Origin: Escherichia phage REP8
Strand: one strand, 5' to 3'
Sequence record: OQ174507.1
Length of the DNA: 64,000 nt
The notes under the pieces are model-generated. The model saw only the letters and a list, made by a program, of their open reading frames with translations. It ran no database searches and was not told where the DNA came from. This document shows, in pieces, positions 1,904 through 59,435 of the stretch (positions are counted from its first letter, which is position 1; the number at the start of each line of letters is the position of its first letter). The position numbers and the translations under genes were made by a program.

Positions 1904-2143
1904 AGATAATCCTCTTGTCTTCTGTAATTTTGAAAGAACAGGTACAGACCAATTTCAGAGGATGAATAGTAGAGTAACTCTACCCTTTTTGATTCCTTAC
2001 AGTGATTGGTATTTTTACCTTTCTTCGGGTTGTTTGATTTTCTCATTAAGTCTCCTTTGTAGAACAAGGCAGACCTACAGCTTTAAGTAAGATGGTACAG
2101 TAATCCATACAACAAGTCAAGAACTATTGCAAGTTAAAAAAGT

Positions 2144-2168
2144 TGTTGACAAGGTACTTGACAAGGTG
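2144..2168 (+). promoter_or_regulatory. conserved promoter-like block with tandem TTGACA boxes (copy 1)
   Basis: GTTGACAAGGTACTTGACAAGGTGT, near-identical to 43703..43727; both are followed by ACTTAAAAGGTT and lie upstream of plus-strand genes. Confidence 0.45.
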
Positions 2169-2295
2169 TAGGCTTATAAATACTTAGAAGATTACTTAAA
2201 AGGTTCCTCTAAAAAGGCTATTTAAACAGATATCTTTCTGGATATCTATCTTTTATCTTAAAAGCCTTTTAAGAGGTCTTATAAGAGGCATACCA

Positions 2296-2667
2296 ATGAA
2301 AAACAGAACAAACAAAGGCCAGTTTAAAAAAGGCCAGTCTGGAAACCCATCTGGAAGACCAAAAGGCTCTCGTAACAAAAGCTCACTTGTAAAAGCTCAA
2401 CTGACCATTGACAATTCTGCTGAGTTTGCTGCAAAGTTATTTGAAGCGATTGTTACAAGGGATGCTGCTAAGCTTGCAGAGTTCGGTTTGACGACTGATG
2501 ATGTAAACCTGAAGTCAATGATGGAAGCTGGTAAAACTATCATGACCCACTCAGCAGGTGAGATGAAAGCGATTGCAGCAGACACTAAGAAGACCCCTGA
2601 TAATGGTGGTCAGTCTCAGACAGATAACAAGCCAACGTTCTCTGCTGTAGCGACTCTCAAAAAATAA
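2296..2667 (+). CDS. hypothetical protein with N-terminal GNPSGRPKG basic motif
   Basis: 123 aa ORF; AAGAGG RBS upstream of ATG. Confidence 0.45.
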   Translation: MKNRTNKGQFKKGQSGNPSGRPKGSRNKSSLVKAQLTIDNSAEFAAKLFEAIVTRDAAKLAEFGLTTDDVNLKSMMEAGKTIMTHSAGEMKAIAADTKKTPDNGGQSQTDNKPTFSAVATLKK

Positions 2668-2748
2668 TTTTAAAAGGTGTTGACAGACTCTACAAAGTTG
2701 CTCTAAAGTCTGTCACATCAAACAACAAATGAGAGAAGAGAGTAAAAT

Positions 2749-4164
2749 ATGAGCGAATTATTTATACATGCGCACCTTCATGCAGGTCGAACTGAAAATG
2801 GTGCTGTAAACCATACTTCATCAATGTCTGCTCTTGTGGACTTTTACAAAGCTGCTGGTTCTAGCCGTAGCAATGTAGAAATCTTACCAGACTTGTTCTA
2901 CAAAGCTTTGCATGAAGATGTTGATGTTGCAGTTCGTATTTTACTGCATATGCGAGATGTACGAGAAGGTATGGGTGAGCGTAAAGCTTTCCGAACTGTT
3001 TTACTTCAAGCGATTGAAGATAAAGTTTTAGAGTCTACGCAGGTTCTTCGCATTATGGATAAGATTGCAGAACTTGGTCGTTTTGATGACTTCAAAATCT
3101 TCGTAGGTACTCGTTTCGAGACAGATGCCTTCAAACATTTAGAAGCAGCATTACTAGACCCTGCAACAGCAGGTTTAGCAGCTAAGTGGTTACCACGAGT
3201 AAAACCACGTCACAAACAGTTTGTAAAACGTTTCTGCAAGTTTGCAAACTTGAGTGAGAAAGAGTACCGCACACTGCTGTCTGCACTATCTGATACAGTT
3301 GAGCAAAAAATCTCTGCTAATGAGTTTGGTAAGATTGACTACAGTAAGATTCCTTCACTTGCTGCTGCACGTTACCAAAAACTGTTTAACCGTAAAGATG
3401 GAGAGCGATACAAAGCTTACATCGAGTCCTTATCAAATGGTGAGACTAAGATTAACGCTGGTGCTGTTTACCCATACGATGTGATTAAATCTGTCAAGTA
3501 TGGTAATGCAGATGTTGCTAATGAGCAGTGGAAAGCACTACCAAACTGGATGGTAGAAGGTGAAAACATCTTGTGTATGACTGATGTTTCAAGCTCAATG
3601 TCTTGGGTGAATCTTGGCTCAATTACTGCCCTTGATATTGGTGTATCACTTGCCTTGTATGTAGCAGAACGCAATACAGGTTGCTTTAAGAACGAGTTGA
3701 TGGTTTATTCAACAAACCCTCACTTCATCGAACTGAGTGGTGATTTACGAAACCGTCATCGTCAGGTGATGCGACACGTTGAATATGGCTCAACTAACTT
3801 ACAAGCAGCTTTTGACCGTATTCTTGAGATAGGTAAAAGAAACAACTTGACTCAGGAAGATATGCCAAGTAAGCTTATCATCTTCTCCGATATGGAGTTC
3901 AATCAGGTTGATGGTGCTAACGGTCGTACAAACTTTGAAGCAATTCAGAGTAAGTACAAAAAAGCTGGATATGAGATGCCACAACTGGTATTCTGGTATT
4001 TAGCAAACCGTAATGGTACTTGCGAAGTATCTGTTAAGGATAACGGTGTAGCAATGGTATCTGGTTTCTCTCCAGCCACTTTAAAAGCTCTGCTTGGTGG
4101 TGAGAAGTTTGACCCAACCAGTGTAATGCTCAAAGCAGTAATGATTGACCGTTATATCTGGTAA
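2749..4164 (+). CDS. vWA domain protein (MIDAS motif), possibly Ro60/TROVE-like
   Basis: 471 aa; DVSSSMS matches the DxSxS MIDAS motif of vWA domains; TROVE assignment is from memory only. Confidence 0.45.
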   Translation: MSELFIHAHLHAGRTENGAVNHTSSMSALVDFYKAAGSSRSNVEILPDLFYKALHEDVDVAVRILLHMRDVREGMGERKAFRTVLLQAIEDKVLESTQVLRIMDKIAELGRFDDFKIFVGTRFETDAFKHLEAALLDPATAGLAAKWLPRVKPRHKQFVKRFCKFANLSEKEYRTLLSALSDTVEQKISANEFGKIDYSKIPSLAAARYQKLFNRKDGERYKAYIESLSNGETKINAGAVYPYDVIKSVKYGNADVANEQWKALPNWMVEGENILCMTDVSSSMSWVNLGSITALDIGVSLALYVAERNTGCFKNELMVYSTNPHFIELSGDLRNRHRQVMRHVEYGSTNLQAAFDRILEIGKRNNLTQEDMPSKLIIFSDMEFNQVDGANGRTNFEAIQSKYKKAGYEMPQLVFWYLANRNGTCEVSVKDNGVAMVSGFSPATLKALLGGEKFDPTSVMLKAVMIDRYIW

Positions 4165-4329: not shown

Positions 4330-4406
4330 CTCTGTTTAGCTCAGCTTGGTAGAGCGTTCCGTTTGGGGCGGTAAGGCCGGAGGTTCAAGTCCTCCAACAG
4401 AGACCA
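4330..4406 (+). tRNA. tRNA-Pro (anticodon TGG)
   Basis: acceptor CTCTGTT/AACAGAG, T-arm GGAGG-TTCAAGT-CCTCC, anticodon loop TTTGGGG, CCA encoded. Confidence 0.6.
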
Positions 4407-4413
4407 AATTAAT

Positions 4414-4491
4414 GTTCCAGTAGACAAAATGGTAAAGTCACCACTCTTTCAAAGTGGATATCTGAGGGTTCAAATCCCTTCTGGAACGCCA
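4414..4491 (+). tRNA. tRNA-Glu (anticodon TTC)
   Basis: acceptor GTTCCAG/CTGGAAC, anticodon stem CCACT/AGTGG with loop CTTTCAA, CCA encoded. Confidence 0.6.
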
Positions 4492-4582
4492 GTTTTGACA
4501 GAAGACCAATTACAGCAAACTTAATCTACTCATCTGACAAGAAATCGGACAAAGAAGATATTTGGTCTGGTCATTAAGAATT

Positions 4583-4656
4583 GCGGGTATAGAGAAAGGG
4601 CGTCTCACATGTCTCATTAGCATGGTATCGGCAGGTTCGACTCCTGCACCCGCCTC
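4583..4656 (+). tRNA. tRNA-Met (anticodon CAT)
   Basis: anticodon stem CATGT/GCATG with loop CTCATTA; T-arm GCAGG-TTCGACT-CCTGC; acceptor register uncertain. Confidence 0.5.
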
Positions 4657-4742
4657 CAAATTTACAGAAGACCGTTTACAGCAACATTTATTAAATTTTT
4701 AGCGGAAAAAATTGAAAGATACGGTCTGGTAATACTAAATAT

Positions 4743-4816
4743 GGTTAGGAAGCACATAAGGTATGTGCGGTCGCCTGTTAAGCGAATGGCACAGGGTTCG
4801 AATCCCTGACTAACCG
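4743..4816 (+). tRNA. tRNA-Asn (anticodon GTT)
   Basis: D-stem GCAC/GTGC, anticodon loop CTGTTAA, T-arm CAGGG-TTCGAAT-CCCTG; no CCA encoded. Confidence 0.55.
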
Positions 4817-4827
4817 CAAATTTAAAT

Positions 4828-4915
4828 GTGTCGTTATCCCGTAGATGGTAGCGGTGGGGACTGTAAATCCCTTGTCATTGAGACTCGGTAGGTTCGACTC
4901 CTACACGGCACACCA
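4828..4915 (+). tRNA. tRNA-Tyr (anticodon GTA), long variable arm
   Basis: 88 nt; acceptor GTGTCGT/ACGGCAC, anticodon stem GGGGA/TCCCT with loop CTGTAAA, CCA encoded. Confidence 0.55.
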
Positions 4916-4920
4916 ATAAA

Positions 4921-5006
4921 GGTTATGTAGTTTAATTTGGTTAAAATACTTCCACGTAAAAGGATATTGGGAGATGATGTGAGTTCAAGTCTCATCGTAG
5001 CCGCCA
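4921..5006 (+). tRNA. tRNA-like gene, anticodon arm unresolved
   Basis: 86 nt; good acceptor GGTTATG/CGTAGCC, T-arm GTGAG-TTCAAGT-CTCAT and CCA, but no canonical 5 bp/7 nt anticodon stem-loop found by hand. Confidence 0.35.
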
Positions 5007-5158
5007 ATTTTGAGAGGGCTATTTAGAACCTCCCTTAAAGGGTTCTTACGAGTATCCTTTAAAGGAGCAGAAGACCAAATTCAGCAAGTTACTTAAAATT
5101 TCAAGCCAATTCAATTTTGAAAAATTTAAAACTTGGTCTGGCTCAACAAATTTACAGA

Positions 5159-5283
5159 AGACCGTTTACAGCAAAACTTAAACAATCTATTTCTCGGTAA
5201 AGAAAAGGAGAAGGTTCGATTCCTTCACTCGGCAGATGTCGAGTTGGTGTAATGGTAGCACTTAAGATGATAAACAACGGTCT
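5159..5283 (+). ncRNA. circularly permuted tRNA-like module closed by an 8 bp stem (Y-RNA-like candidate)
   Basis: order is T-arm GAAGG-TTCGATT-CCTTC, acceptor 3' strand ACTCGGC, AGAT, acceptor 5' strand GTCGAGT, D-arm-like GGTGTAATGGTAGCAC; flanked by AGACCGTT (5159-5166) / AACGGTCT (5276-5283). Confidence 0.35.
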
Positions 5284-5286
5284 GGT

Positions 5287-5430
5287 AATTATCTTTGTAG
5301 ATAAGTTATTAAGCTTACCTGTGAGTATGCGACCACAAAGGGTGAAAGGGTAAATTCTAGATTTAAACCCAACAAGGCACATCGCTACAGACCTTAAGCA
5401 AGTCTGGGTAGCTTATCTACAAAGATAATT
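5287..5430 (+). repeat. structured element closed by a perfect 19 bp inverted repeat
   Basis: AATTATCTTTGTAGATAAG (5287-5305) pairs with CTTATCTACAAAGATAATT (5412-5430); ~106 nt interior holds sub-hairpins. Confidence 0.55.
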
Positions 5431-5434
5431 TAAT

Positions 5435-5510
5435 GGAAGTGTAGCAGAATGGTGATGCGGCAGACTTTTAATCTGACAGGCGATGGGTTCGAATCCCTCC
5501 ACTTCTACCA
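5435..5510 (+). tRNA. tRNA-Lys (anticodon TTT)
   Basis: acceptor GGAAGTG/CACTTCT, anticodon stem CAGA/TCTG with loop CTTTTAA, CCA encoded. Confidence 0.55.
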
Positions 5511-5514
5511 AAAT

Positions 5515-5590
5515 GGTTCAGTCGCAGATAAGGTAATGCAAGGGTCTCATAAGCCCTATGAATGTGGGTTCGATTCCCATCTGAACCTCC
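5515..5590 (+). tRNA. tRNA-Met or Ile2 (anticodon CAT)
   Basis: acceptor GGTTCAG/CTGAACC, anticodon stem AGGGT/GCCCT with loop CTCATAA, CCA encoded; 1-72 paired so not a bacterial initiator. Confidence 0.55.
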
Positions 5591-5593
5591 AAA

Positions 5594-5669
5594 GCTGTGA
5601 AAGCACATATGGATGTGCATTCGGCTGATAACCGAAAGGCAGAAGGTTCGAATCCTTCTCACAGTACCA
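5594..5669 (+). tRNA. tRNA-Ile (anticodon GAT)
   Basis: D-stem GCAC/GTGC, anticodon stem TTCGG/CCGAA with loop CTGATAA, T-arm GAAGG-TTCGAAT-CCTTC, CCA encoded. Confidence 0.65.
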
Positions 5670-5684
5670 ATTTCAATAAAGTTG

Positions 5685-5713
5685 TTGACATTGAGATGTG
5701 ACCACTTTATAGT
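5685..5713 (+). promoter_or_regulatory. sigma70-like promoter inside the tRNA array
   Basis: TTGACA, 17 bp spacer, TATAGT. Confidence 0.5.
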
Positions 5714-5917
5714 AACCTTAGTTTTCGTTGCGTAGCGTCTATTTTGCAAATTTAAAATAAATGCAAACGACAATGTTTTTCTGGCAGTAGCTTGATAGGC
5801 TAAACACCAGTGAGGTCTTCCAACCCCTCATCAAAGAATTTGGCGTACTAGCCCACGGTATGATTAATAAGGTGGGCATCTTTAAGGGCTTTCTAAGAGA
5901 GTCTTTAAAGATAATTA

Positions 5918-5999
5918 CGGGGCGTATCTCAGCTGTCTTCTAAACAGCCGTTAATCGAGTAAGTGGAGTATGCGGGTTCGAGTCCTGCCGCCTCGACCA
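5918..5999 (+). tRNA. atypical tRNA-like gene with Arg-type anticodon loop (TCT)
   Basis: 82 nt; acceptor CGGGGCG/CGCCTCG, perfect hairpin GCTGT-CTTCTAA-ACAGC, T-arm and CCA present, but only ~5 nt where the D-arm should be. Confidence 0.35.
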
Positions 6000-6238
6000 A
6001 TTTAGTTAGCAGATTACTTAGACGACCTTAGCGGGTCTTCCTGTAGGGAGGTGGTCTGTATCTCATGTTTTCCAGAACATGTAAATAATCTGAGAAGGGG
6101 CTTTACAGTGTTGAGATAATACGGTAAGCTTCGAATTATAGTATGGGACGATGTTAAGACTCTAAGGCATGAGCAACGGCTTCCAACACCGTTTCAAAGG
6201 GGTTCAACTCCTCCGTCACATGCCAAAGTCTTATTAGG

Positions 6239-6326
6239 GGTAGGTAGCGGCTAATGGTAGCCAAACTGTCTTGAAAACAGTTGCCACTGTAGAGATACGG
6301 TGAGGGTTCGACTCCTTTACTTACCG
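6239..6326 (+). tRNA. tRNA-Ser (anticodon TGA), long variable arm
   Basis: 88 nt; acceptor GGTAGGT/ACTTACC, anticodon stem ACTGT/ACAGT with loop CTTGAAA. Confidence 0.55.
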
Positions 6327-6483
6327 CCTAATAAGATTTAAAGCCAAGCTTCATTCGGATGTTGCTTTGGTATACCGCGTGTATTGTTGTACACATTGAT
6401 AAAACACCTAGTAGGTGTCACGGAGAAGAGATAATATCAAGCTCTCCAAAGGTTCTAGTCACCGGATTAAACAAGACTATGCA

Positions 6484-6505
6484 AAGACCTTTTTAGGTCT
6501 TTTTA
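6484..6505 (+). terminator. rho-independent terminator-like hairpin inside the tRNA array
   Basis: AGACC-TTTTTA-GGTCT followed by TTTTT. Confidence 0.4.
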
Positions 6506-6583
6506 GAGGGCTTCTAAGGTTATTACAGCTTGTTGTGGAACCTTGTTGCTTAGGTTCTTAGAAGTTCTCTAAAAAGACTTAAT

Positions 6584-6661
6584 GGGAGATTGACGGTAAT
6601 TGGTAAACCTATCTCGCTTAGAACGAGATGTTTGAGGGTTCGAATCCCTTGTCTCCTACCA
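6584..6661 (+). tRNA. tRNA with anticodon TAG (Leu by anticodon; short variable region)
   Basis: acceptor GGGAGAT/GTCTCCT, anticodon stem TCTCG/CGAGA with loop CTTAGAA, A73, CCA encoded. Confidence 0.45.
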
Positions 6662-6668
6662 AATTAAT

Positions 6669-6744
6669 GCAGGTGTAGCAAAATGGTTATGCGGCTGACT
6701 CTTAATCAGTAAGACGATGGGTTCAATTCCCTCCACCTGTACCA
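6669..6744 (+). tRNA. tRNA-Lys (anticodon CTT)
   Basis: acceptor GCAGGTG/CACCTGT, anticodon stem GCTGA/TCAGT with loop CTCTTAA, CCA encoded. Confidence 0.55.
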
Positions 6745-6750
6745 GACATT

Positions 6751-6826
6751 GGGGATGTAGTTTACATGGTTAAAACATAAGTTTTGCAAACTTAAGTACA
6801 GGGTTCAATTCCCTGCTTCTCCACCA
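6751..6826 (+). tRNA. tRNA-Ala (anticodon TGC)
   Basis: D-stem GTTT/AAAC, anticodon stem TAAGT/ACTTA with loop TTTGCAA, T-arm CAGGG-TTCAATT-CCCTG, CCA encoded. Confidence 0.6.
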
Positions 6827-6832
6827 ATTAGT

Positions 6833-6907
6833 GCATCCATAGTTTAAACGGGAAAATTACAGTCTTCCAAACTGAGGTTGAGGGTTCGATTCCCTCTGGA
6901 TGCTCCA
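6833..6907 (+). tRNA. tRNA-Gly (anticodon TCC)
   Basis: acceptor GCATCCA/TGGATGC, anticodon loop CTTCCAA, T-arm GAGGG-TTCGATT-CCCTC, CCA encoded. Confidence 0.55.
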
Positions 6908-6913
6908 AATAAT

Positions 6914-6990
6914 GCTGCTTTCGTATAATTGGCTATTACACATCCCTTGTAAGGATGGAAATGCAGGTTCGAGTCCTGTGAGCAGCACCA
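6914..6990 (+). tRNA. tRNA-Thr (anticodon TGT)
   Basis: acceptor GCTGCTT/GAGCAGC, anticodon stem CATCC/GGATG with loop CTTGTAA, CCA encoded. Confidence 0.6.
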
Positions 6991-6992
6991 AT

Positions 6993-7080
6993 TCAGAGGT
7001 CAAGTGAAAGACCGCTGGTGTCAACTGAAGACCGTAACAAATTCCACGGAGTTGAGTTAGCGGCACAACTTCAGACCTCT
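6993..7080 (+). ncRNA. long imperfect hairpin (candidate small RNA or processing element)
   Basis: nested stems CAGAGGTC/GACCTCTG, CCGCT/AGCGG, CAACT/AGTTG, CCGT/ACGG; contains a GAAGACCGT motif. Confidence 0.35.
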
Positions 7081-7085
7081 TTCAC

Positions 7086-7160
7086 ACTCGCTTAGTTTAT
7101 ATGGTAAAACATCACCCTTACAAGATGAAGAAAAAGGTTCAAGTCCTTTAGTGAGTACCA
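7086..7160 (+). tRNA. tRNA-Val (anticodon TAC)
   Basis: acceptor ACTCGCT/AGTGAGT, D-stem GTTT/AAAC, anticodon loop CTTACAA, CCA encoded. Confidence 0.5.
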
Positions 7161-7161
7161 T

Positions 7162-7239
7162 GTTCCAGTATCCCAATTGGCAGAGGATGCAAGCTCAAAC
7201 CTTGTATTAGTGACGGTTCGAATCCGTCTTGGAACACCA
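7162..7239 (+). tRNA. tRNA with anticodon CAA (Leu by anticodon; short variable region)
   Basis: acceptor GTTCCAG/TTGGAAC, anticodon stem GCAAG/CTTGT with loop CTCAAAC, T-arm GACGG-TTCGAAT-CCGTC, A73, CCA encoded. Confidence 0.45.
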
Positions 7240-7258
7240 ATTTTAAGAGGCTATTTAG

Positions 7259-7816
7259 ATGAGATATTTGAAGTATGCTTCATGGATTTTCCTAGCTTTA
7301 CTAGAGCCATTTGCAGCAACCCTAGCAGTCATCTTAGCACCTTTCGTAGTTCCATTCTACAGTGAGAAGAAAGGGCATCTACCTTTTGGATTCAGATGGA
7401 TGGAGACCTATGACAACCCGATTGATGGTGACAAAGGCCACGTTGAGAGATGGGCTAAGATTAGAAAGATTGGTAAGCTCGGTGTTTATATGCAGAGAGT
7501 TGGGTGGCTCTGGAGAAACAAAGCTTATAACTTCTCTTACCATGTATTAGGAAGAGATGTAAAAGATGTTACTAAGTGGAAAGGTAATATCAACGTAAGT
7601 TCTGACCCTGAAGATAATCAGACTGGTTATCTCCTAATGTGGAACAGTAATGCTTGGGGATTATTCGCTTTTATCCCATCAATTAAAGTCTTTGGTAAAC
7701 AGTTTTACTGGAGAATTTATATTGGATGGAAACTAAAAAGCGTTGTCCCAGAAGAAAGAGCATTCTCAAGGGAAAGAGTTATGTTGGCATTCTTTATTCA
7801 TCCACTGAGAAAGTAA
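7259..7816 (+). CDS. hypothetical membrane protein encoded inside the tRNA array
   Basis: 185 aa; AAGAGG RBS 8 nt upstream of ATG; hydrophobic N-terminus (WIFLALLEPFAATLAVILAPFVV). Confidence 0.45.
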   Translation: MRYLKYASWIFLALLEPFAATLAVILAPFVVPFYSEKKGHLPFGFRWMETYDNPIDGDKGHVERWAKIRKIGKLGVYMQRVGWLWRNKAYNFSYHVLGRDVKDVTKWKGNINVSSDPEDNQTGYLLMWNSNAWGLFAFIPSIKVFGKQFYWRIYIGWKLKSVVPEERAFSRERVMLAFFIHPLRK

Positions 7817-7824
7817 AGATTTAA

Positions 7825-7900
7825 AGGGGATTAGTTTACAAGGTTAAAACCTCGGTCTTTGAAATCGAAGAAGTTGGTTCAATTCCAACATCCCCCGCCA
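7825..7900 (+). tRNA. tRNA-Gln (anticodon TTG)
   Basis: anticodon stem TCGGT/ATCGA with loop CTTTGAA, T-arm GTTGG-TTCAATT-CCAAC, CCA encoded. Confidence 0.5.
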
Positions 7901-7902
7901 AT

Positions 7903-7981
7903 GCTCCATTACTCCAATTGGCAGAGAGGCCAGACTTAAAATCTGTGTTATGTATCGGTTCGAATCCGATATGGAGTACCA
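7903..7981 (+). tRNA. tRNA with anticodon TAA (Leu by anticodon)
   Basis: acceptor GCTCCAT/ATGGAGT, anticodon stem CAGA/TCTG with loop CTTAAAA, A73, CCA encoded. Confidence 0.45.
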
Positions 7982-7986
7982 AATTT

Positions 7987-8062
7987 AGCGGTATAGCATA
8001 ACTGGCAATGCAACAGTCTCTGAAGCTGTCCTATTAAGGTTCAAATCCTTATGCCGCTGCCA
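7987..8062 (+). tRNA. tRNA-Gln (anticodon CTG)
   Basis: acceptor AGCGGTA/TGCCGCT, D-stem GCAT/ATGC, anticodon stem ACAGT/GCTGT with loop CTCTGAA, CCA encoded. Confidence 0.55.
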
Positions 8063-8093
8063 CTTCTAAGGATTCTTGCGAGAGTCCTTAAAT

Positions 8094-8169
8094 GTGGCCT
8101 TATCATAAATGGTAATGACCCATGCTGTGAACATGGTCTATACGGGTTCAAATCCCGTAGGTCACCCCA
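8094..8169 (+). tRNA. tRNA-His (anticodon GTG)
   Basis: acceptor GTGGCCT/AGGTCAC, anticodon stem CCATG/CATGG with loop CTGTGAA, C73, CCA encoded. Confidence 0.6.
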
Positions 8170-8174
8170 ATTTA

Positions 8175-8251
8175 TAGTCCAAGTAGCTTATATGGTTAAA
8201 GCGCGTGTCTGAAAAACATGAGAAGAGGGTTCAAATCCCACTGGACTACCA
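8175..8251 (+). tRNA. tRNA-Phe (anticodon GAA)
   Basis: acceptor TAGTCCA/TGGACTA, anticodon stem CGTGT/ACATG with loop CTGAAAA; 3' end register uncertain. Confidence 0.5.
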
Positions 8252-8267
8252 ATTTCAAAGGTGCTTA

Positions 8268-9002
8268 ATGAAAGAGATGACAGAACAAGGTAAGGAGATT
8301 TTTAATCTCTTAAAAACCGGTAAAGGGTTTTCTAATCCCCTTATTACTGGTGCAGCAGTCCTCGGTGGAACCGTAGCTGCTTCTACATCACTTGTAAGCT
8401 CTATTAGTTCTGTAACAGACCCTACAATGAAGGAGAAACTTGTTACTGCTGGACTTACAACAGTCCTTCTAAACAGCTTTACAACAAGCCTTACAAGCAC
8501 TACAGCAACTACTAAGACCCTAACAGACTACGGTCAAAAGTCTATTGATGAGTTTTCATCACGTATGCAGGTAGCAAAGGGATACTCTAATGTTATGGGT
8601 GCAGCAGGAGAACAAGTTGGTTGTACACCATTCAGTGGTATTATGGGTGTTGCTACAGAGTATGGTCAAAAAGCTATTGACATGATGAACAGTACACTAG
8701 ATAGTGTTAATGGTGTGTTAAGTGACTTACAAGATGCTATTGATAAGGGTCTTGATACTGTTTCTGATTTAGCTGAGCAAGCTGTTAGTAAGATTAATGA
8801 AGGTATTTCGAAGATTACAGCTTATGCAGATGAAGTTGTGCAGATGATTGAAGAAGAAGCTGCCCTTATTGCAGAGTACCTTAAAACGAATATCAATGGG
8901 TTCTTAGCAGGTATCTTACCAGACTGGTTTGATGATGCTTGTAAAACTGGTGTGATTGAAACTATTGCAACACCAGAAATGAAGAGCGCATTACAGAAAT
9001 AA
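8268..9002 (+). CDS. hypothetical protein
   Basis: ORF-track frame 8205..9002 begins inside tRNA-Phe; in-frame ATG at 8268 with AAAGG upstream is the more likely start. Confidence 0.4.
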   Translation: MKEMTEQGKEIFNLLKTGKGFSNPLITGAAVLGGTVAASTSLVSSISSVTDPTMKEKLVTAGLTTVLLNSFTTSLTSTTATTKTLTDYGQKSIDEFSSRMQVAKGYSNVMGAAGEQVGCTPFSGIMGVATEYGQKAIDMMNSTLDSVNGVLSDLQDAIDKGLDTVSDLAEQAVSKINEGISKITAYADEVVQMIEEEAALIAEYLKTNINGFLAGILPDWFDDACKTGVIETIATPEMKSALQK

Positions 9003-9004
9003 AT

Positions 9005-9097
9005 GGAAGATTAACCCTAAAAGGTAAGGGAGCAGTTTGCTAAACTGCCAGTAGCTGAGAAATCGGTGTACCAGTTCAAGTCTGGTATCTTCCTCCA
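9005..9097 (+). tRNA. tRNA-Ser (anticodon GCT), long variable arm
   Basis: 93 nt; perfect acceptor GGAAGAT/ATCTTCC, anticodon stem GCAGT/ACTGC with loop TTGCTAA, CCA encoded. Confidence 0.6.
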
Positions 9098-9101
9098 ATT
9101 T

Positions 9102-9177
9102 GAATCCGTGACAGAAATGGCTATGTGCCTGTCTGCAAAACAGGTTTATAAGGGTTCGAGTCCCTTCGGATTCTCCA
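9102..9177 (+). tRNA. tRNA-Cys (anticodon GCA)
   Basis: perfect acceptor GAATCCG/CGGATTC, anticodon stem CCTGT/ACAGG with loop CTGCAAA, CCA encoded. Confidence 0.65.
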
Positions 9178-40138: not shown

Positions 40139-40675
40139 TCAACTTAGTTTTGCAAACTCTCCGTGGAGTTTCATAGCAGCTTCACAGTAAGCTTTATGGG
40201 CTTCTTCAGGGGTGTCATGGTGACCTAAAAACATCTTCTTACCTTTATAACTTATCTGTGCGACCCACTTACCAGACTTCTTCTTAAGACTTACACCCTT
40301 GTACCCAGATTTATTGGTGACTGGTTTGCCTTTATTCCAAGCACTTTGAAAGTCATCTGCTTCCCTTAAGTTTACAATCCTGTTGTCAAGTGAGTCTCCG
40401 TTGATATGGTCAATGATACCTTTTGGCATCTTGCCATACACGTAAAGCCATGCGAGTCTGTGTGCTTTATGTGCTTTCTTGTCAAAATAGATACTAATCT
40501 GTTTATGACCACTTGAATCAGTCTGGATATTACCTGCCACCTTTCCTGCATAATTACTGTTAAAAACACTAACAGCTCTTGATTTACCTTCTCTGCGAAG
40601 CCAAGTAAAGACCCCTGTTTCGGGGTCATAGTGTAGTAGCTCCTTTAAACGTTTTTGTGAAATAAAATCCATCAA
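40139..40675 (-). CDS. HNH homing endonuclease with AP2 DNA-binding domain
   Basis: HRLAWLYVYG...GIIDHINGDSLDNRIVNLREA (HNH) followed by GYKGVSLKKKSGKWVAQISYKGKKMFLGHHDTPEEAHKAY (AP2-like); directly adjoins polymerase exon 2. Confidence 0.7.
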   Translation of the reverse strand: MMDFISQKRLKELLHYDPETGVFTWLRREGKSRAVSVFNSNYAGKVAGNIQTDSSGHKQISIYFDKKAHKAHRLAWLYVYGKMPKGIIDHINGDSLDNRIVNLREADDFQSAWNKGKPVTNKSGYKGVSLKKKSGKWVAQISYKGKKMFLGHHDTPEEAHKAYCEAAMKLHGEFAKLS

Positions 40676-41232
40676 TCAATGTACCTCATACCAACTCTTA
40701 CCAACCTTTGCTGTACCAGTTACAAGTGTTTCTTTCTTCAAACCTAAGTTTTTTGAAGCTTGCCCATACATCCAGTCAGCAATTGCTTTCATATCATGTG
40801 TCATATTCTCTGGGCATTCCCAACTATTTTCGTCGTGATATGCCAGAAGTAGTCTTGCTCCGATAGCTGGTTTTCGAGCATTCAGTTTTGTCAGGCCATC
40901 TTCACAGGCTTTTCTTGCTGCTAGGTTGATGGCCTCATTCTGAATCTGTGCTTCCGAACTCATCAGGAGGTAGTTCAGTAGTTTATGTGGAGATTTGCAC
41001 CATATCCATGCTCCAGCGACCCTGATATAACCACCCTTAGCAATTGAAGAATTCTTCCCAAAAACCTCTTCCAGAGCCTTTTTAGACGCCTTAAAATCGG
41101 CTTCTAAGCTATCAAGTAAACTCTTAATCTTCGGTAGACGCATATAGTAAGTCTGCTTAGTCAATGCACCTTCCTCTGTAGAAGCTGCCTTAATGGTTTT
41201 GGCAAACTTCTCATCACCTGCACCGAACAATA
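40676..41232 (-). CDS. DNA polymerase (family A, T7-like), exon 2
   Basis: LFGAGDEK matches pol A motif B (T7: FLYGAGDEK); LLLAYHDE matches motif C. Confidence 0.65.
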
Positions 41233-41500
41233 CATCTGGTCAATACACTCGCAAGGTGTACCAGTTCTCTTATGAACTTCTCCGCATTTCTACGGAGTGT
41301 CGGACTATATCACGTAGTAGTAATACTACCGTTGCACTTGGGAATGGTCATTAGCTTACCACCCTACTCTACTCAGTTCATACATTAAGTATGCTTTTCG
41401 ATAGTCTCTGAACGTTCCTCTCAAGAGGCTTCGCTGCTGATTACCGTATCTTCTCAGACTTAGGCTTCCAGCAATTCACAACGTTTTACATGCGCCACTG
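41233..41500 (-). ncRNA. group I intron in the DNA polymerase gene
   Basis: 268 nt; exon ends ATGCGT and intron nt 6-11 GCGCAT form P1; GTTCAGAGACTA (R) and GATATAGTCC (S); last nt G; opens with a stop in frame; no ORF inside. Confidence 0.6.
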
Positions 41501-43673
41501 ACGCATAAATGCCATTTTTGGCTTTCTTACGACCTTTTGTAATCTCGTGGAGAAGTTCCTCATCCTGTGTCTCCCTGCAACGAACAATATCCTCTTCTTT
41601 GTTAAGACCAAAGTAAATACTGTTCAGTGTATGCGCATCAGTCCCTGTGTAGACTTCATAGAGGTCGTTCTCAGCATCATAACGAAGATACTTATCAGTT
41701 TCTGGATTAAGATACTTATCGAGATGCTTGCAATAGTATCTGCCATCTTCTTGCTTAGTGAACTCTACTGACTCTTTACCCTCAGTTACCGCTTTGGTGA
41801 ACTCTTTATCACCCATAAAGTTACAAAGAAGAACAAGCTGTGCAGAGTTCTGGTCAACTGAAACGATATTAGTCCCTTCCTCGCAAATCCAAACCTCCCT
41901 CATAGGCGCTCCATAGACAGCAGCACCAGACGGTACGTTTACAATACCATATTGTGTCATACGTCCAGTTGAAGTACCAAACACCATTGCACCAGCACTA
42001 AGGCGACCATCAGGACGAATCTGGTTCAACCAACCTTTTTCATCATCCTTTGAGTTCTCAATAGTTCTGCGTCGGTGCATCAAAGTATAGTACTTAGCAA
42101 TCTTCTGTCCAAGCTCACCTTCAATCGTGTCATAAGATGATTCAGTAAGTTTTGGTGAAGTACGGATTAAGCAAGGCTCAAGCAAATCTGTGTATTTCTT
42201 CACAGACCAGTTATGTTCAATGTACTGTACACCTTCATGCTCAACATAGCTCAAACCACACCGCTCAACCATTTCCTGCCACTTAGGATGCTTTGTAATC
42301 ATCTTTTTATTGTCTTTGAAACGACAAACTTTAACAGGGCGACCATCTGAGTCTTTCTTGTAGTTCCAGTCATCTGGAATCCAACCAACTGATTTCAAGT
42401 AGTCTTTAACAACTGCTACCTGAGTCATACGAGAAACTTCAAACTCAATTGGTGTATACGGTGCATCAATCAAACCTGTGTAGCGACTCGACTCAAGCTC
42501 AAAGTGGTTAACAACGTGGCTGTTATAGTACTTCACAGTTTTGACTGTTTTTACTGGCTTCCAGTCTTTGCATTTCTTACCAATCTTTGCGTTCAACTCA
42601 TTGCAAATTGCACGAGCATCCTTCATTGCTACAAAACCTTCTTTGTACTCTTCACCAGTTACAGAGTTGGTTGGTGTATAGCAATTCCGCTTTTCAATGT
42701 TAAAAATCTTTGTAGTTGGCTTACCAAATGGCTTGATTTCATATGTCTGCATCTCACCGTTACGTACCTGTTGACGATACTTTGTCTTAGGGTACTTGGT
42801 AATTCTCTTCAGTCCATCTGCATGACCAAATGCTTCAACATACTCATTCCAAGCTTTTGCAAACTCTTCTCCAGTGACTTTACCTTTGGTCTTAATAGTT
42901 GGAGGTAGATGTGGTTCAACCTCTGAAGCAAGCTCATTAGTCAACTTGTCAAGTTCCTTTACATGGAACTCCATAAGTTCTTTATCAGCTTTCCAGCCAT
43001 TGATAGCTTGTTGACTCATCCAGAAAGATGTTTCTTTAGCTCGCATGTAGGTTTCATAGGTGTCTACGCCACACTTCTTTAGCTTCAGATATTCATTATC
43101 CAATGCACGTTTAGTTTTGGCGTTGATACGGATATCTTCTACAACACGAGTGAAGATTTCTGCATTCCACACACCCCAATGTTCAATCTCTGGTTTACGA
43201 ACACCAACACGAGCACCCCATGCAGCCAAGCCATGAGCACCTTTATAACCCTTTGGAGTTGGCCTATCCATCCACTGAACACGAGACTGGATAAGAGAAT
43301 CCTGAAAGAAATTACTCCACGGTTTACACTTTGGATTATCAAAGTTCCATAAATCAGGTGCAATGTGATTGAAAACCCACCAGTCATAACCGAGACCGTT
43401 ATGGATGCAAAGACGTTTTGCCTTTAACGCAAATTCAACACCTTCACGTAAACCACCCTTGATGTACTTAGTGTACTTGTGACCGAGGATAGGTTCATCT
43501 GTAAAGACCCATACAGGTGGCTCTTCATCGTCAGATTTATAGTCTGCGAAAGCCATTACGTGCACTTTAGTGAACTCAAGAAGTAAACCATCAGTTTCTG
43601 TATCACCAACTAAATGTAAGTTTTTAAAATCTACGTTTTCCATTTTTACTCCCTCTAAAATCATTAACCTCAT
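41501..43673 (-). CDS. DNA polymerase (family A, T7-like), exon 1
   Basis: N-terminal exonuclease motif LVGDTETDGL; ends ...RKKAKNGIYA in the middle of motif B. Confidence 0.65.
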
Positions 43674-56821: not shown

Positions 56822-58018
56822 ATGAACAAAGTACAGATTATTAAAAAGAATGGCTCACTCGAAGAACCTGATATCAAAAAAGTTTTAACAGCAGTCACAA
56901 AGTCAGCTAATAGGGTTGGGTATAAAGAACTCCCGCCAGATGTTACCCAAGCTCTTGAGTCAGCATTTATGAGGGTTCTGGTAAAATCCACTAAGCAGAA
57001 TAATTTACTCGTTTCAGTAAATGATATTCACAGTATTGTTGAGGGTGCTTTGGCAGAAGTCAATCACGAGATTTATGAGTCTTACTCAACATATAGAAAT
57101 TACCGTAAAGAGGTTGCTCAAAACTGGGATGAACTCTACCAGAAGACTAAAGATACACTCTTCTTAGGTGACCGTGAAAATGCTAATTTTGACAGCAGTT
57201 TAATTTCTACGAAAGGTTCAATTATCCGTGGTTACCTGACTAAAGAAATCTTTAAACAGTATCATCTAACACCAGAGGAACTTGAAGCCATTGAGAAAGG
57301 CTTTGTCTATATCCATGATTTAAGAGACCTGATTTTTGGTGGTATTAACTGTTGCCTGTTTGACATTGGTAAAGTACTAAAAGGTGGCTTTGAAATGTCC
57401 GGCATTGAGTACTGTGAACCTAAATCTGTACTGTCAGCGTTGCAGGTTATTGGTGACGTAGTACTTTCAGCAACTGCACAGCAATTTGGTGGTTTTACTT
57501 TAGCAGAGATTGATAAGGTACTTGTACCGTATGCGAAGAAGTCTCTACGCTATCATGCTGAGAAAGCATCATCTTATGGTATCCCTAAAGAGCATTACCA
57601 CAATTATGTCATGGAGCAGCTACAGATTGAACTGACTCAAGGTTTCCAGTCGCTTGAAATGAAACTAAACACTGTACCTTGTAGTCGTGGGGATTTTGCA
57701 TTTACAACTTTGACATTCGGGTTACTTGACTCAGACATGTCTAATGAAGACAACCGACTGCAATACATGATTGCAAGTACTCTCCTAGATGTTCGTATGA
57801 ATGGACAAGGTAAGAGTAAGAAGCCTGTTGTATTCCCTAAACTGGTTTATATTTATGACCAGAAGAGACATAATGAGAATATCTGTCAAGGCCACCTGTA
57901 CAGTAAAGCTATAGAGTGTTGCTCTAAAGCGATGTATCCAGATTTCTTAAGTGTATCTGGTCATGGTGCTGTAGCAGAAGCTTTTGAGCGTTCTGGTAAG
58001 GTTATTTCACCGATGGGT
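56822..58018 (+). CDS. nrdD: anaerobic ribonucleotide reductase, exon 1
   Basis: ATP-cone-like N-terminus; ends ...ISPMG with T as last exon nucleotide; an in-frame TAA opens the intron. Confidence 0.65.
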
Positions 58019-58334
58019 TAACAAGCTCTATAGCTCATCTAAAACGTGCCTAAACAGGGAAACTCTACAGATGTAGACAATCCTGTGCTAAATGATGTAC
58101 GATGTAAGAAACTATACAACATAGGGGTCTTACATGCCAAATAACTTCGAATATGAGTTTGGATACATCTAAATGCCGAACGACTAACCGTGATGAATGT
58201 AGCGGTGTAGGGTCAAGCGACTCGAAATGGTACGCTACTTAGAAATAAGTAGAAGATATAGTCTGGACTTACTGGCGACAGTAAGCAGCTTGAATAAAGC
58301 GGGGTAAGCGTAGCGAACTTACCTGAACAACAAG
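58019..58334 (+). ncRNA. group I intron in nrdD
   Basis: 316 nt; AAGATATAGTCT (S element), GACTAA (R/P7 region), last nt G, preceding exon ends in T; no ORF inside. Confidence 0.6.
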
Positions 58335-59282
58335 TGTAGAGCGTTTTTATCACCATACCATAACGAAGATGGTGAAGAGTTTTATGTAGGTCGTGCTAAC
58401 ATTGGTGCTGTATCTTTGAACTTACCAATGATTTACCAGTACTCTAAAGAGAATGGTTTAGATTTCTGGAAAGAGCTTGATAAGTACCTAGAAATGATTC
58501 GCAGCTTCCACAAGAAACGCTACGAAATGATTGCTAATATGCCAGCAAGTTCTAACCCTCTTGCATTCACACAAGGTGGTCTGTACAAAGGGACTAAGAA
58601 ACCTACTGACAAGGTTGGTTGGGATATCGTGAAGTCCTTCACAGCTTCTTTTGGGGTTACTGCGCTTGATGAGCTATCTGTTCTTGCTGAAGGTAAACGA
58701 CTTCATGAAGTTGGAAGCTGTAGTTTTGCATACGATGTTCTGGAATACATCAACATGAAAACTGAAGAGTTTAAGAACGAAGATGGCTTCTTGTATGCGG
58801 TATATGGCACTCCAGCAGAATCACTTTGCGGAACTCAGCTAAAACAGTTCAGAGATATGTTTGGCGTTATTAAAGGTGTCTCTGACAAGGAATACTTTAC
58901 AAACAGTTTCCATATGAATGTTGCAGCAGACATTACACCATTTGAGAAGCAGGACTTAGAAGAACCCTTCTTTCATATCTGTAGAGGCGGCAGAATCCAG
59001 TATGTAAGGGTAGCTAATCCAGAAAACTTATCAGCACTTAAAAGTTGTATTACAAGAGGGATGTTGAAAGGTTTCTATCAGGGACTTAACTTTGACTTAG
59101 CAATCTGTGAACATTGTGGTAACAGACCAAAGGCTGATGTTGAAGAATGTGAGGTTTGCCATTCACACGATATCTCTGTGATTAACAGGGTGTGCGGGTA
59201 CTTGTCATTCACAAAAATTAAAGGTCAGTCTCGAATGAATGACGCTAAGATGGCAGAAATTAAGGATAGAGTATCTATGTAA
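58335..59282 (+). CDS. nrdD: anaerobic ribonucleotide reductase, exon 2
   Basis: begins CRAFLSP...GRANIGAVSLNLP; C-terminal zinc ribbon CEHCGN...CEVCHSHD and glycyl-radical motif RVCGYLSF. Confidence 0.65.
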   Translation, partial: CRAFLSPYHNEDGEEFYVGRANIGAVSLNLPMIYQYSKENGLDFWKELDKYLEMIRSFHKKRYEMIANMPASSNPLAFTQGGLYKGTKKPTDKVGWDIVKSFTASFGVTALDELSVLAEGKRLHEVGSCSFAYDVLEYINMKTEEFKNEDGFLYAVYGTPAESLCGTQLKQFRDMFGVIKGVSDKEYFTNSFHMNVAADITPFEKQDLEEPFFHICRGGRIQYVRVANPENLSALKSCITRGMLKGFYQGLNFDLAICEHCGNRPKADVEECEVCHSHDISVINRVCGYLSFTKIKGQSRMNDAKMAEIKDRVSM

Positions 59283-59435
59283 AACTTGACAAGGTGGTGT
59301 GGGTCTTGATAGGCTTACATCACCTTTTTATTGGATGTTAGATATGGCTGAGAGTATTATTGGGTTGTTCATAGGTTCTGTCTTACTAGGGTTCTTTTTA
59401 GGACTCTCTTATTGTGAATTGAGAGATAAGTTAAA

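What the first reader, a model, noticed from the sequence alone, without database searches (positions are those of the whole stretch)
58019..58334. Group I intron in the anaerobic ribonucleotide reductase gene nrdD
nrdD is interrupted after ...VISPMG by 316 nt that begin with TAA in frame. The downstream frame resumes CRAFLSPYHNEDGEEFYVGRANIGAVSLNLP, so the joined protein reads ...SPMG-CRAFL..., a block I recall as conserved in class III reductases. The gap contains AAGATATAGTCT (S element) and a GACTAA P7-type segment, ends in G, and the upstream exon ends in T; GCCTA inside the intron could serve as the guide sequence pairing with exon TGGGT. T4 is known to carry a group I intron in its nrdD (sunY) gene, so this is a new instance of a known insertion target rather than a new element class.
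Basis: partly seen in the sequence, partly recalled or inferred. Interest (0 to 1): 0.6.

Follow-up and report, generated by a model that had tools for sequence, protein, structure and literature searches.

The report
Endonuclease-less group I intron in phage nrdD

Summary
nrdD is split at 58018/58335 by 316 nt (58019..58334) that start with an in-frame TAA and end in G. Rfam's group I model scores it above its curated threshold. Removing exactly these bases reproduces the uninterrupted nrdD of Felix O1 and wV8 and gives a 714-aa NrdD that aligns without a break to solved NrdD structures.

A P1-P10 model holds across 11 homologous introns at the same site from at least five phage lineages: 93% of cells paired, 42 of 78 pairs with compensatory changes.

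- The guide sequence is GCUCAUC (58033..58039), not GCCUA, which lies in P3.
- The insertion site is Gly|Cys, directly before the catalytic cysteine (T4 Cys290). It is not T4's site, which lies about 110 codons upstream. The ribozyme is nevertheless a relative of T4's nrdD (sunY) intron and uses the same guide hexamer.

The window's copy derives from the 742-nt HNH-endonuclease-bearing intron of other Felixounaviruses. An in-frame 426-nt deletion left a 12-codon relic ORF. The genus holds intronless, endonuclease-bearing and endonuclease-less alleles.

Verdict: a new member of a known kind, of modest interest. Splicing itself is inferred, not shown.

The parts
56822..58018 (+). nrdD exon 1 (399 codons: ATP-cone plus the N-terminal half of NrdD), ending ...VISPMG with GGT
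   Evidence: ORF list. Pfam ATP-cone and NRDD profile positions 1-250. Aligns to solved NrdD structures 9d3x and T4 1h78.
58012..58018 (+). 5' strand of P1: exon GAUGGGU. U58018 forms the U.G wobble at the 5' splice site.
   Evidence: Sequence. Seven pairs, of which 6 are invariant and the distal one is C-G, G-C or U.G across relatives.
58019..58334 (+). Group I intron, 316 nt, subgroup IA2-like, without an endonuclease gene
   Evidence: Rfam RF00028 at 55.4 bits against a gathering score of 50. Exact excision reproduces intronless alleles. Covariation. The MFE fold reproduces the helices.
58019..58021 (+). In-frame TAA that stops translation of unspliced RNA directly after exon 1
   Evidence: Relatives have a stop at this point or two codons later.
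58026..58032 (+). 5' strand of P10 (CUCUAUA), complementary to the first 7 nt of exon 2
   Evidence: Sequence. Seven pairs in the Felixounavirus copies; this register is not conserved in other lineages (66% of cells paired).
58033..58039 (+). Internal guide sequence GCUCAUC (3' strand of P1)
   Evidence: The same GCUCAU hexamer occurs in T4's nrdD intron.
58045..58050 (+). P3 5' strand (CGUGCC).
   Evidence: Pairs with 58229-58234. 100% of cells paired, 3 of 6 pairs with compensatory change.
58054..58086 (+). P4 (58054-59 with 58081-86) enclosing the P5 hairpin (58064-68 with 58073-77)
58087..58176 (+). P6 (GC/GC), P6a (58094-99 with 58164-69) and the P6 loop that holds the endonuclease relic
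   Evidence: All 7 P6a pairs show compensatory changes. The HNH ORF of related introns sits in this loop.
58134..58172 (+). Relic of the HNH endonuclease ORF: 12 codons, MPNNFEYEFGYI*. A degraded ribosome-binding site AGGGG lies at 58123-58127. The deletion junction is at about 58141/58142.
   Evidence: Alignment with the 742-nt intron of Salmonella phage Meda. A 426-nt in-frame deletion keeps the first 3 and last 9 sense codons plus the stop. Other endonuclease-less copies keep AGGAG and GAA at these points.
58182..58186 (+). P7 5' strand (GACUA); with 58259-58263 it forms the guanosine-binding helix
   Evidence: Rfam alignment. Invariant in 11 of 11, so it offers no covariation evidence.
58187..58223 (+). 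P7.1 (58187-90 with 58203-06) and P7.2 (58210-14 with 58219-23), the peripheral helices typical of subgroup IA
   Evidence: 3 of 4 P7.1 pairs covary; P7.2 cells are 100% paired. MFE fold.
58229..58234 (+). P3 3' strand (GGUACG)
58235..58252 (+). P8 hairpin with a GAAA loop
   Evidence: 4 of 5 counted pairs covary. MFE fold.
58253..58263 (+).
   Evidence: Matches the Rfam consensus gAAGAUAUAGUCu.
58268..58324 (+). P9 (GCGA loop), P9.1 and P9.2
   Evidence: P9 has 3 of 7 pairs covarying, P9.1 has 3 of 4, P9.2 has 7 of 8. MFE and centroid folds.
58334..58334 (+). Terminal guanosine (omega-G) at the 3' splice site
   Evidence: Sequence. A G ends the intron in all 11 relatives and in T4.
58335..59282 (+). 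nrdD exon 2, starting with the catalytic Cys codon TGT (CRAFLS...) and ending with the glycyl-radical domain and a TAA stop
   Evidence: Translation. Pfam NRDD positions 264-560 and Gly_radical. The Cys aligns with T4 NrdD residue 290. Of the 12 codons among the first 31 that differ from Felix O1, 10 are synonymous.

Best explanation

Inferred mechanism:
1. The pre-mRNA folds so that exon GAUGGGU pairs with the guide GCUCAUC (P1), with a U.G wobble at the cleavage site.
2. A free guanosine bound in P7 attacks after U58018.
3. The terminal G58334 then occupies the same pocket. Exon 2 is held by P10 (CUCUAUA with UGUAGAG). The exons are ligated to give GGU-UGU.
4. The result is a 714-aa NrdD whose catalytic cysteine is the first residue encoded by exon 2.
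5. The TAA at the first intron codon stops ribosomes on unspliced RNA.

This copy is immobile on its own. It descends from the 742-nt intron found in other Felixounaviruses, which carries an HNH homing endonuclease in the P6 loop, and it lost 426 nt of that ORF.

Shown here: anatomy, homology, exact restoration of the gene, covariation, and the deletion. Inferred: that it splices, and how efficiently.
For: - **Model match.** Rfam RF00028 scores above its gathering score.
- **Exact excision.** Removing 58019..58334 reproduces the contiguous nrdD of Felix O1 and wV8. The product aligns end to end with solved NrdD structures across SPMG|CRAFLS.
- **Covariation.** On 11 same-site introns, 93.3% of 856 cells are paired and 42 of 78 pairs show compensatory changes. 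None of 500 shuffles reaches the observed value on four of the five measures, and 1 of 500 does on the fifth. Slid-partner controls give 30-43% paired.
- **Independent fold.** An energy-only fold of the window's intron recovers P3, P4, P5, P6, P6a, P7.1, P7.2, P8, P9, P9.1 and P9.2, with z = -2.5.
- **Splice-site rules.** U.G at the 5' splice site and a terminal G are present in all relatives.
- **Selection on the exons.** Most codon differences from Felix O1 are synonymous: 60 of 67 in exon 1 and 51 of 63 in exon 2. This includes the first 31 codons of exon 2, which have no upstream start codon.
- **Conservation of the ribozyme.** In endonuclease-bearing copies the ribozyme part diverges less (0.4-3.6%) than the ORF part (3.2-8.4%).
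- **The deletion.** Alignment with Meda shows a clean 426-nt loss.
Against: - No experimental evidence of splicing exists for this or any Felixounavirus copy in the literature I could search.
- P7 and most of P1 never vary, so they offer no covariation evidence.
- P10 in the window's register is not conserved outside the genus (66% paired).
- The covariation alignment was built by justifying hairpin arms against conserved anchors, so it leans somewhat towards the structure.
- Synonymous-biased divergence could partly predate intron acquisition.
Confidence: 0.9

Rival explanations
1. nrdD is a truly split gene, as the public record of this phage annotates it. Two polypeptides are translated separately and assemble, as in Aeromonas phage Aeh1 NrdA, and the 316 nt are merely a spacer left by a mobile element.
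For: GenBank OQ174508 lists two CDSs, the second starting at an internal ATG. A functional split RNR is reported for Aeh1 NrdA (PMC3653736).
Against: - The first start codon in the exon 2 frame is the TTG at 58416. The frame upstream is closed by TAG at 58311-58313, read directly from the sequence.
- The annotated second CDS starts at window 58428. It omits 31 residues, including the catalytic Cys and the conserved CRAFLSP...GRANIGAVSLNLP block.
- Those 31 codons evolve mostly synonymously.
- The spacer is a complete, covarying ribozyme.
Confidence: 0.04
2. The intron is a decaying, splicing-defective remnant. After loss of its endonuclease the ribozyme is also failing, and nrdD is a pseudogene in this phage.
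For: - The endonuclease ORF is deleted, and the relic's ribosome-binding site and one codon carry extra substitutions in this copy.
- The homing-cycle model predicts degeneration after endonuclease loss (established knowledge, not tested here).
- Class III RNR may be dispensable when the phage's class Ia RNR (nrdAB, upstream in the window) works.
Against: - All core helices are intact in the window's copy.
- The differences from other 316-nt copies and from Meda are few. Those I placed on the model lie in the P6-loop relic (108, 144), a hairpin loop (292), the 3' tail (313) or the exons. The one at intron position 82 (C to T) lies next to P6a, and I did not test its effect on structure.
- Both exons are open and 97.5% identical in protein to Felix O1 NrdD.
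- The same 316-nt form occurs in roughly 30 sequenced phages.
Confidence: 0.05
3. Chance resemblance: an AT-rich intergenic stretch that happens to match the group I consensus.
For: The 5' third of the Rfam alignment is placed wrongly, inside exon 1.
Against: - E = 2.4e-11 for the whole window.
- Homologous introns sit at the same codon boundary in unrelated phages, with compensatory changes.
- The core is 77.6% identical to that of T4's sunY intron.
Confidence: 0.01

Closest known systems
Endonuclease-bearing nrdD intron of other Felixounaviruses (for example Salmonella phage Meda MH586731, annotated as a joined CDS with an internal HNH endonuclease; UAB_Phi87, JH2 and HB-2014 described as 'split nrdD')
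   Same: Same site and same ribozyme: identical over intron positions 1-104 and nearly identical over the last 170 nt or so. Same diverged 3' exon flank.
   Different: Meda's copy is 742 nt and has a 154-aa HNH_3 endonuclease ORF in the P6 loop. The window's copy lacks 426 nt of that ORF. The literature describes the arrangement as a gene interrupted by a homing endonuclease, without naming a group I intron (PMC4837284; PMC3728262).
Bacteriophage T4 nrdD (sunY) group I intron with I-TevII
   Same: Same host gene. The architecture is the same element by element, parsed by the same anchor pattern. The ORF-stripped core is 77.6% identical to the window's. The guide hexamer GCUCAU is the same, and the 5' exon hexamers are similar (AUGAGU against AUGGGU).
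   Different: The insertion site differs: after codon 179, phase 1, against Gly|Cys (T4 289|290), phase 0. T4 carries a GIY-YIG endonuclease in P9.1, whereas this family carries an HNH endonuclease in P6.
nrdD introns of phi92 (annotated 'spliced variant'), Phapecoctavirus nepoznato, Vequintavirus navn, Krischvirus phiS and Vibrio phage F97
   Same: The same Gly|Cys insertion site (..MG|CR..), homologous ribozymes (76-80% identity to the window's) and an HNH ORF in P6 where one is present.
   Different: Different phage families. Lengths range from 251 to 819 nt. The P10 register differs. phi92 and several metagenomic copies have lost the ORF; the different lengths and junctions suggest separate losses, which I did not test.
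T4 td intron (I-TevI)
   Same: IA2 architecture. 70.7% identity over the 3' half of the intron. I recall from the literature, and did not check here, that its endonuclease ORF also lies in the P6 loop.
   Different: Different gene (thymidylate synthase) and a different endonuclease family (GIY-YIG).

Membership tests
Group I intron (Rfam RF00028) | Covariance-model score at or above the curated gathering score | tested here: met
   55.4 bits against 50, E = 2.4e-11. The 5' end of the match is misplaced in exon 1.
Group I intron (Rfam RF00028) | Conserved core helices P3-P8 with the P3/P7 pseudoknot, supported by comparative data | tested here: met
   Cells are 100% paired in P3, P4, P6, P7 and P8. 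P5 is 83.6% paired and P6a 88.0%. Compensatory changes occur in 3 of 6 P3 pairs, 3 of 6 P4 pairs, 7 of 7 P6a pairs and 4 of 5 P8 pairs. P7 is invariant.
Group I intron (Rfam RF00028) | 5' splice site after a U that forms a U.G wobble with the guide sequence in P1 | tested here: met
   U58018 pairs with G58033. U.G is present in 11 of 11 relatives.
Group I intron (Rfam RF00028) | Intron ends in guanosine (omega-G) | tested here: met
   G58334, and a terminal G in all relatives.
Group I intron (Rfam RF00028) | Precise removal restores a continuous host gene | tested here: met
   The junction is identical in layout to intronless Felix O1 and wV8. The alignment to solved NrdD structures is contiguous.
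Group I intron (Rfam RF00028) | Guanosine-dependent self-splicing | not testable with these tools
   Needs an in vitro GTP-labelling assay or RT-PCR. No published test was found.
Subgroup IA2 (T4 td / sunY type) | Extra helices P7.1 and P7.2 between P7 and P3', and sequence homology to the T4 introns | tested here: met
   P7.1 and P7.2 are present and covary. 77.6% core identity to sunY. 70.7% identity to td over the 3' half.
T4 nrdD (sunY) insertion site | Same codon position in nrdD as the T4 intron | tested here: not met
   T4's intron lies after ...AFQAYE (179/180). The window's lies at the equivalent of T4 G289|C290.
Mobile (homing) group I intron | Encodes an intact homing endonuclease | tested here: not met
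   Only a 12-codon relic remains. The intact 154-aa HNH_3 ORF is present in 61 related records.
NrdD, class III ribonucleotide reductase (host gene) | ATP-cone, NRDD core with the catalytic Cys, and a C-terminal glycyl-radical domain in one polypeptide | tested here: met
   Pfam hits on the two exons cover NRDD profile positions 1-250 and 264-560, plus ATP-cone and Gly_radical. Alignment to T4 1h78 places the Cys at residue 290.

The most novel reading that the evidence does not exclude
One ribozyme lineage occupies two different positions in the same gene. The T4-type site (UAUGAGU|) and the Gly|Cys site (GAUGGGU|) are read by an unchanged guide hexamer, GCUCAU. This suggests the intron moved from one nrdD site to the other by guide-sequence-directed reverse splicing, and afterwards acquired different endonucleases: GIY-YIG in P9.1 at one site, HNH in P6 at the other. 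If so, it would be a clear natural example of ectopic group I transposition in phages. It could be tested directly with T4 and Felixounavirus material.
Probability: 0.3. Interest if true: 0.55.

Novelty: new member of a known kind. Interest (0 to 1): 0.3.

Why it matters
**Annotation.** The public records of this phage (REP9 to REP12) and many other Felixounaviruses list nrdD as two genes, and the second loses the catalytic cysteine. Recognising the intron corrects the gene model. The founding Felix O1 genome paper reported no introns, which is true for that strain (it has the intronless allele). A later comparative study of the genus does not mention introns at all.

**Biology.** The genus offers all three states of the homing cycle at one site. 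The same Gly|Cys site is occupied in at least five phage lineages, and the ribozyme is shared with T4's classic sunY intron at a different site. This makes a convenient natural system for studying intron gain, endonuclease loss and site switching. None of this changes what is known about how group I introns work.

Tried and rejected
- **Rfam's placement of P1/P2.** The model put them inside exon 1 (57911-58018). I rejected this because the exon is coding and the true P1 is found by the U.G rule and by conservation.
Rejected. Its GCC is in P3, which covaries with 58229-34. The alternative pairing would lose the U.G wobble in navn and break in Vibrio F97.
- **The plain MAFFT alignment A1.** It misaligned the variable hairpins P6a, P8 and P9.1, so I did not use it for counting. 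I replaced it with an anchor-justified, N-padded alignment, A2.
- **P10 as a family-wide feature.** It holds for 7 of 7 pairs in Felixounavirus copies, but only 66% of cells pair in that register across lineages. Other lineages seem to use CUAUA three bases further upstream. I treated P10 as lineage-specific.
- **Local co-conversion against clade structure.** Whole-gene identity also separates intron-bearing from intronless phages. Only the dense cluster at +2..+53 of exon 2 is suggestive, and it is not proven.
- **Literature.** I looked for a description of this intron. I found only 'split nrdD / homing endonuclease' statements, and the phi92 paper is not held.
- **Tool quirk.** Several script calls failed only because locus files are bundled several to a file.

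Full report
**What the window is.** The nrdD region (56822..59285) is 100% identical to Escherichia phages REP9 to REP12 and 95-96% identical to many Salmonella and Escherichia phages of the genus Felixounavirus. In the REP9 record, nrdD is annotated as two separate CDSs, with nothing annotated in the gap. These are 'NrdD-like...' at window 56822..58021 and 'anaerobic ribonucleoside reductase large subunit' starting at an internal ATG at window 58428.

**Checking the observation.**
- Exon 1 ends ...VISPMG with GGT at 58016-58018, followed by an in-frame TAA.
- The frame resumes at 58335 with CRAFLSPYHNEDGEEFYVGRANIGAVSLNLP.
- The gap is 316 nt and ends in G58334.
- AAGATATAGTCT is at 58253-58264 and GACTAA at 58182-58187.

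Rfam's group I model (RF00028) matches 57911..58285 on the + strand at 55.4 bits, above the gathering score of 50, with E = 2.4e-11 for the whole window. It pushes the model's P1/P2 wrongly into exon 1.

**Does removal restore the gene?** Three results say it does.
- A 240-nt query made of the last 120 nt of exon 1 joined to the first 120 nt of exon 2 matches many Felixounaviruses as one uninterrupted 240-nt piece at 87-94% identity. These include Felix O1, wV8 and FSL SP-107.
- In Felix O1 and wV8 the sequence reads ...CCGATGGGT|TGCAGAGC... with nothing in between.
- The conceptually spliced 714-aa protein aligns from end to end with two solved NrdD structures, with no gap at the junction. 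These are 9d3x (E = 1.9e-77) and T4 1h78 (E = 4.1e-75).

The window's SPMG|CRAFLSPY lies on T4's SPMGCRSFLSVW. Counting back in that alignment, the Cys is T4 residue 290. From my memory of the T4 NrdD structure paper, this is the radical-carrying active-site cysteine. The intron therefore sits immediately before the catalytic Cys codon, in phase 0. Pfam sees ATP-cone plus NRDD positions 1-250 in exon 1, and NRDD positions 264-560 plus Gly_radical in exon 2.

**Anatomy.** I derived a P1-P10 model from the sequence, with all coordinates verified.

| Element | 5' strand | 3' strand or note |
|---|---|---|
| P1 | exon GAUGGGU, 58012-18 | GCUCAUC, 58033-39; U58018.G58033 at the splice site |
| P10 | CUCUAUA, 58026-32 | exon 2 UGUAGAG, 58335-41 |
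| P3 | 58045-50 | 58229-34 |
| P4 | 58054-59 | 58081-86 |
| P5 | 58064-68 | 58073-77 |
| P6 | 58087-88 | 58175-76 |
| P6a | 58094-99 | 58164-69 |
| P7 | 58182-86 | 58259-63 |
| P7.1 | 58187-90 | 58203-06 |
| P7.2 | 58210-14 | 58219-23 |
| P8 | 58235-41 | 58246-52; GAAA loop |
| P9 | 58268-74 | 58279-85; GCGA loop |
| P9.1 | 58288-91 | 58297-300 |
| P9.2 | 58302-08 | 58318-24 |
| omega-G | 58334 | |

P1 and P10 use adjacent stretches of one 14-nt guide, as expected for a group I intron. An energy-only fold of the 316 nt recovers P3 through P9.2 without any constraint, at -80.5 kcal/mol and z = -2.5. P7.1 and P7.2 mark it as subgroup IA, like the T4 introns.

GCCUA (58048-52) overlaps the 5' strand of P3 and is not the guide.

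**Relatives at the same site.** A blastn search with the intron alone found 486 phage records. Reading the junctions shows homologous introns at exactly the same ..MG|CR.. boundary of nrdD in the following:
- phi92 (279 nt; GenBank already gives a 'spliced variant' CDS)
- Phapecoctavirus nepoznato (770 nt)
- Vequintavirus navn and 'Campylobacter phage' A13b (762 nt)
- Krischvirus phiS (760 nt)
- Vibrio phage F97 (819 nt)

A pattern scan of IMG/VR added four more lineage variants of 251, 253, 263 and 737 nt, plus further Felixounavirus copies of 742 and 316 nt.

**Covariation.** I stripped the ORFs from the P6 loops. I then cut each sequence at conserved anchors and left- and right-justified the hairpin arms. 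The padded rows went through the aligner unchanged as alignment A2.

On 11 sequences my structure gives the following:
- 93.3% of 856 cells paired, against 78.2% for shuffles.
- 42 of 78 pairs with a change on both sides, against 23.6 for shuffles.
- None of 500 shuffles reaching the observed value on four of the five measures, and 1 of 500 on the fifth (further pair types).
- Sliding the 3' partners by 1-3 columns drops pairing to 30-43% and compensatory pairs to 8-10.

Compensatory changes occur in every helix except P7, which is invariant. In P1 the distal pair is G-C in Felixounavirus and phiS, C-G in phi92, navn, L017, L031 and L038, and U.G in nepoznato and F97. The guide therefore covaries with a synonymous exon position.

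Two caveats apply. The alignment was guided by anchors, so it leans towards the structure. P10 in the window's register holds only in Felixounavirus copies.

**Relation to T4.** T4's own nrdD intron lies after ...DAFQAYE (codon 179, phase 1), about 110 codons upstream of the Gly|Cys site, which is uninterrupted in T4.

T4's intron is nevertheless the same ribozyme.
- With I-TevII removed from P9.1, it is parsed by the very same anchor pattern.
- Its core is 75-81% identical to the Gly|Cys-site introns. That is as close as the window's intron is to the others (75.6-79.8%).
- Both use the guide hexamer GCUCAU, against 5' exon AUGAGU in T4 and AUGGGU here.

A given hexamer pattern AUGRGU is expected about once per 2 kb. 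An unchanged guide at two sites of one gene is therefore suggestive of guide-directed relocation. It is not proof.

**Loss of the endonuclease.** Salmonella phage Meda's record joins the two nrdD exons around a 742-nt intron containing a 154-aa HNH endonuclease (Pfam HNH_3). The alignment shows three things:
- The window's intron is identical to Meda's over positions 1-104 and nearly identical over the last 170 nt or so.
- It lacks 426 nt inside the ORF.
- The deletion is in frame, between about 58141 and 58142, with a 2-nt AA microhomology. It leaves ATG CCA AAT AAC TTC GAA TAT GAG TTT GGA TAC ATC TAA (MPNNFEYEFGYI*, 58134..58172).

Two other 316-nt copies from IMG/VR have the same deletion. 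They keep Meda's AGGAG ribosome-binding site and GAA codon, where the window has AGGGG and GGA. The relic is therefore drifting in this phage.

phi92 compared with nepoznato, and locus L033, show other ORF losses in the same loop, apparently separate events. Among endonuclease-bearing Felixounavirus copies, the ribozyme part differs from Meda by 0.4-3.6% and the ORF part by 3.2-8.4%.

**Allele classes in the genus (approximate).**
- 214 phage records match the exon junction.
- 93 carry at least 80% of the intron.
- 61 carry the 426-nt ORF segment.

That leaves roughly 121 intronless, 61 endonuclease-bearing and about 32 endonuclease-less.

**Is the gene still used?** Compared with Felix O1, 60 of 67 differing codons in exon 1 are synonymous, and 51 of 63 in exon 2. 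In the first 31 codons of exon 2, 10 of 12 differing codons are synonymous. These 31 codons have no usable start codon upstream: a TAG at 58311-13 closes the frame, and the first start is the TTG at 58416. This fits translation across a spliced junction. It argues against a two-polypeptide enzyme, which would lack the catalytic Cys, and against a pseudogene.

**A possible co-conversion tract.** Both intron-bearing alleles (the window and Meda) share 11 substitutions at +2..+53 of exon 2 relative to Felix O1 and wV8. That is about 21% divergence against a gene average of about 6.5%. One of them is TGC to TGT, which completes P10. This looks like exon sequence brought in with the intron, but I could not separate that from shared ancestry.

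**Prior knowledge.**
- The Felix O1 genome paper states that introns are absent (PMC3185647). That is right for that strain.
- Later papers describe a 'split nrdD' interrupted by a homing endonuclease in some genus members, without calling it a group I intron (PMC4837284; PMC3728262).
- A 2021 comparative study of the genus does not mention introns (PMC8300805).
- Some GenBank records (Meda, phi92) already join the exons.

I found no experimental test of splicing.

**Verdict.** This is a real, well-formed group I intron: a new member of a known kind, and under-annotated rather than unknown.

Noticed in passing
window 41236..41506 (- strand); flanking ORFs 41460..43673(-), 40676..41230(-), 40139..40675(-): A second group I intron (Rfam 61.7 bits) splits the family-A DNA polymerase gene. 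By my reading the splice gives ...KAKNGIY-VLFGAGDEKFAK. The intron has no ORF. A free-standing HNH_3+AP2 endonuclease gene lies directly downstream of polymerase exon 2. Across Felixounaviruses the polymerase intron is also polymorphic: ORF-less, about 530 nt longer with an 'endonuclease', or absent.
   Followed up: partly
window 58335..58427 versus GenBank OQ174508 (L001 4607..5461): The public record of this phage starts the second nrdD CDS at an internal ATG (window 58428). This drops 31 residues, including the catalytic Cys, and no intron is annotated.
   Followed up: yes
window 58336..58388 (exon 2, +2..+53): A dense cluster of 11 substitutions relative to intronless Felix O1 and wV8 is shared with the endonuclease-bearing Meda allele. 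It includes Phe to His. It looks like a co-conversion tract, and possibly like an endonuclease-resistant target.
   Followed up: partly
L003 (T4 AF158101) nrdD intron compared with window 58033..58038: T4's sunY intron and this intron share the guide hexamer GCUCAU, and their 5' exon hexamers are near-identical (AUGAGU against AUGGGU), at two different nrdD positions.
   Followed up: partly
L006 (Vibrio phage F97 OZ195764) 1..3700: nrdD of this Vibrio phage is annotated in five pieces with two HNH endonuclease ORFs. It therefore carries at least two intervening elements, one of them at the same Gly|Cys site.
   Followed up: partly
L014 (MG065677 'Campylobacter phage A13b') and MG065668 'Campylobacter phage A126': Records labelled Campylobacter phage (one UNVERIFIED) carry Vequintavirus-like and Felixounavirus-like nrdD sequences that are 96% identical to coliphage sequences. 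They are probably mislabelled or contaminant assemblies.
   Followed up: no
window 4330..9174 (+ strand): A cluster of 22 tRNA genes, as expected for a Felix O1-like genome.
   Followed up: no
window 58102..58135: In the energy-based fold, AUGUAAGA (58102-09) pairs with UCUUACAU (58128-35). This covers the first two bases (AU) of the relic start codon, while the degraded ribosome-binding site lies in the loop just upstream. It resembles the start-site occlusion described for T4 intron endonuclease genes, which I recall from memory.
   Followed up: no
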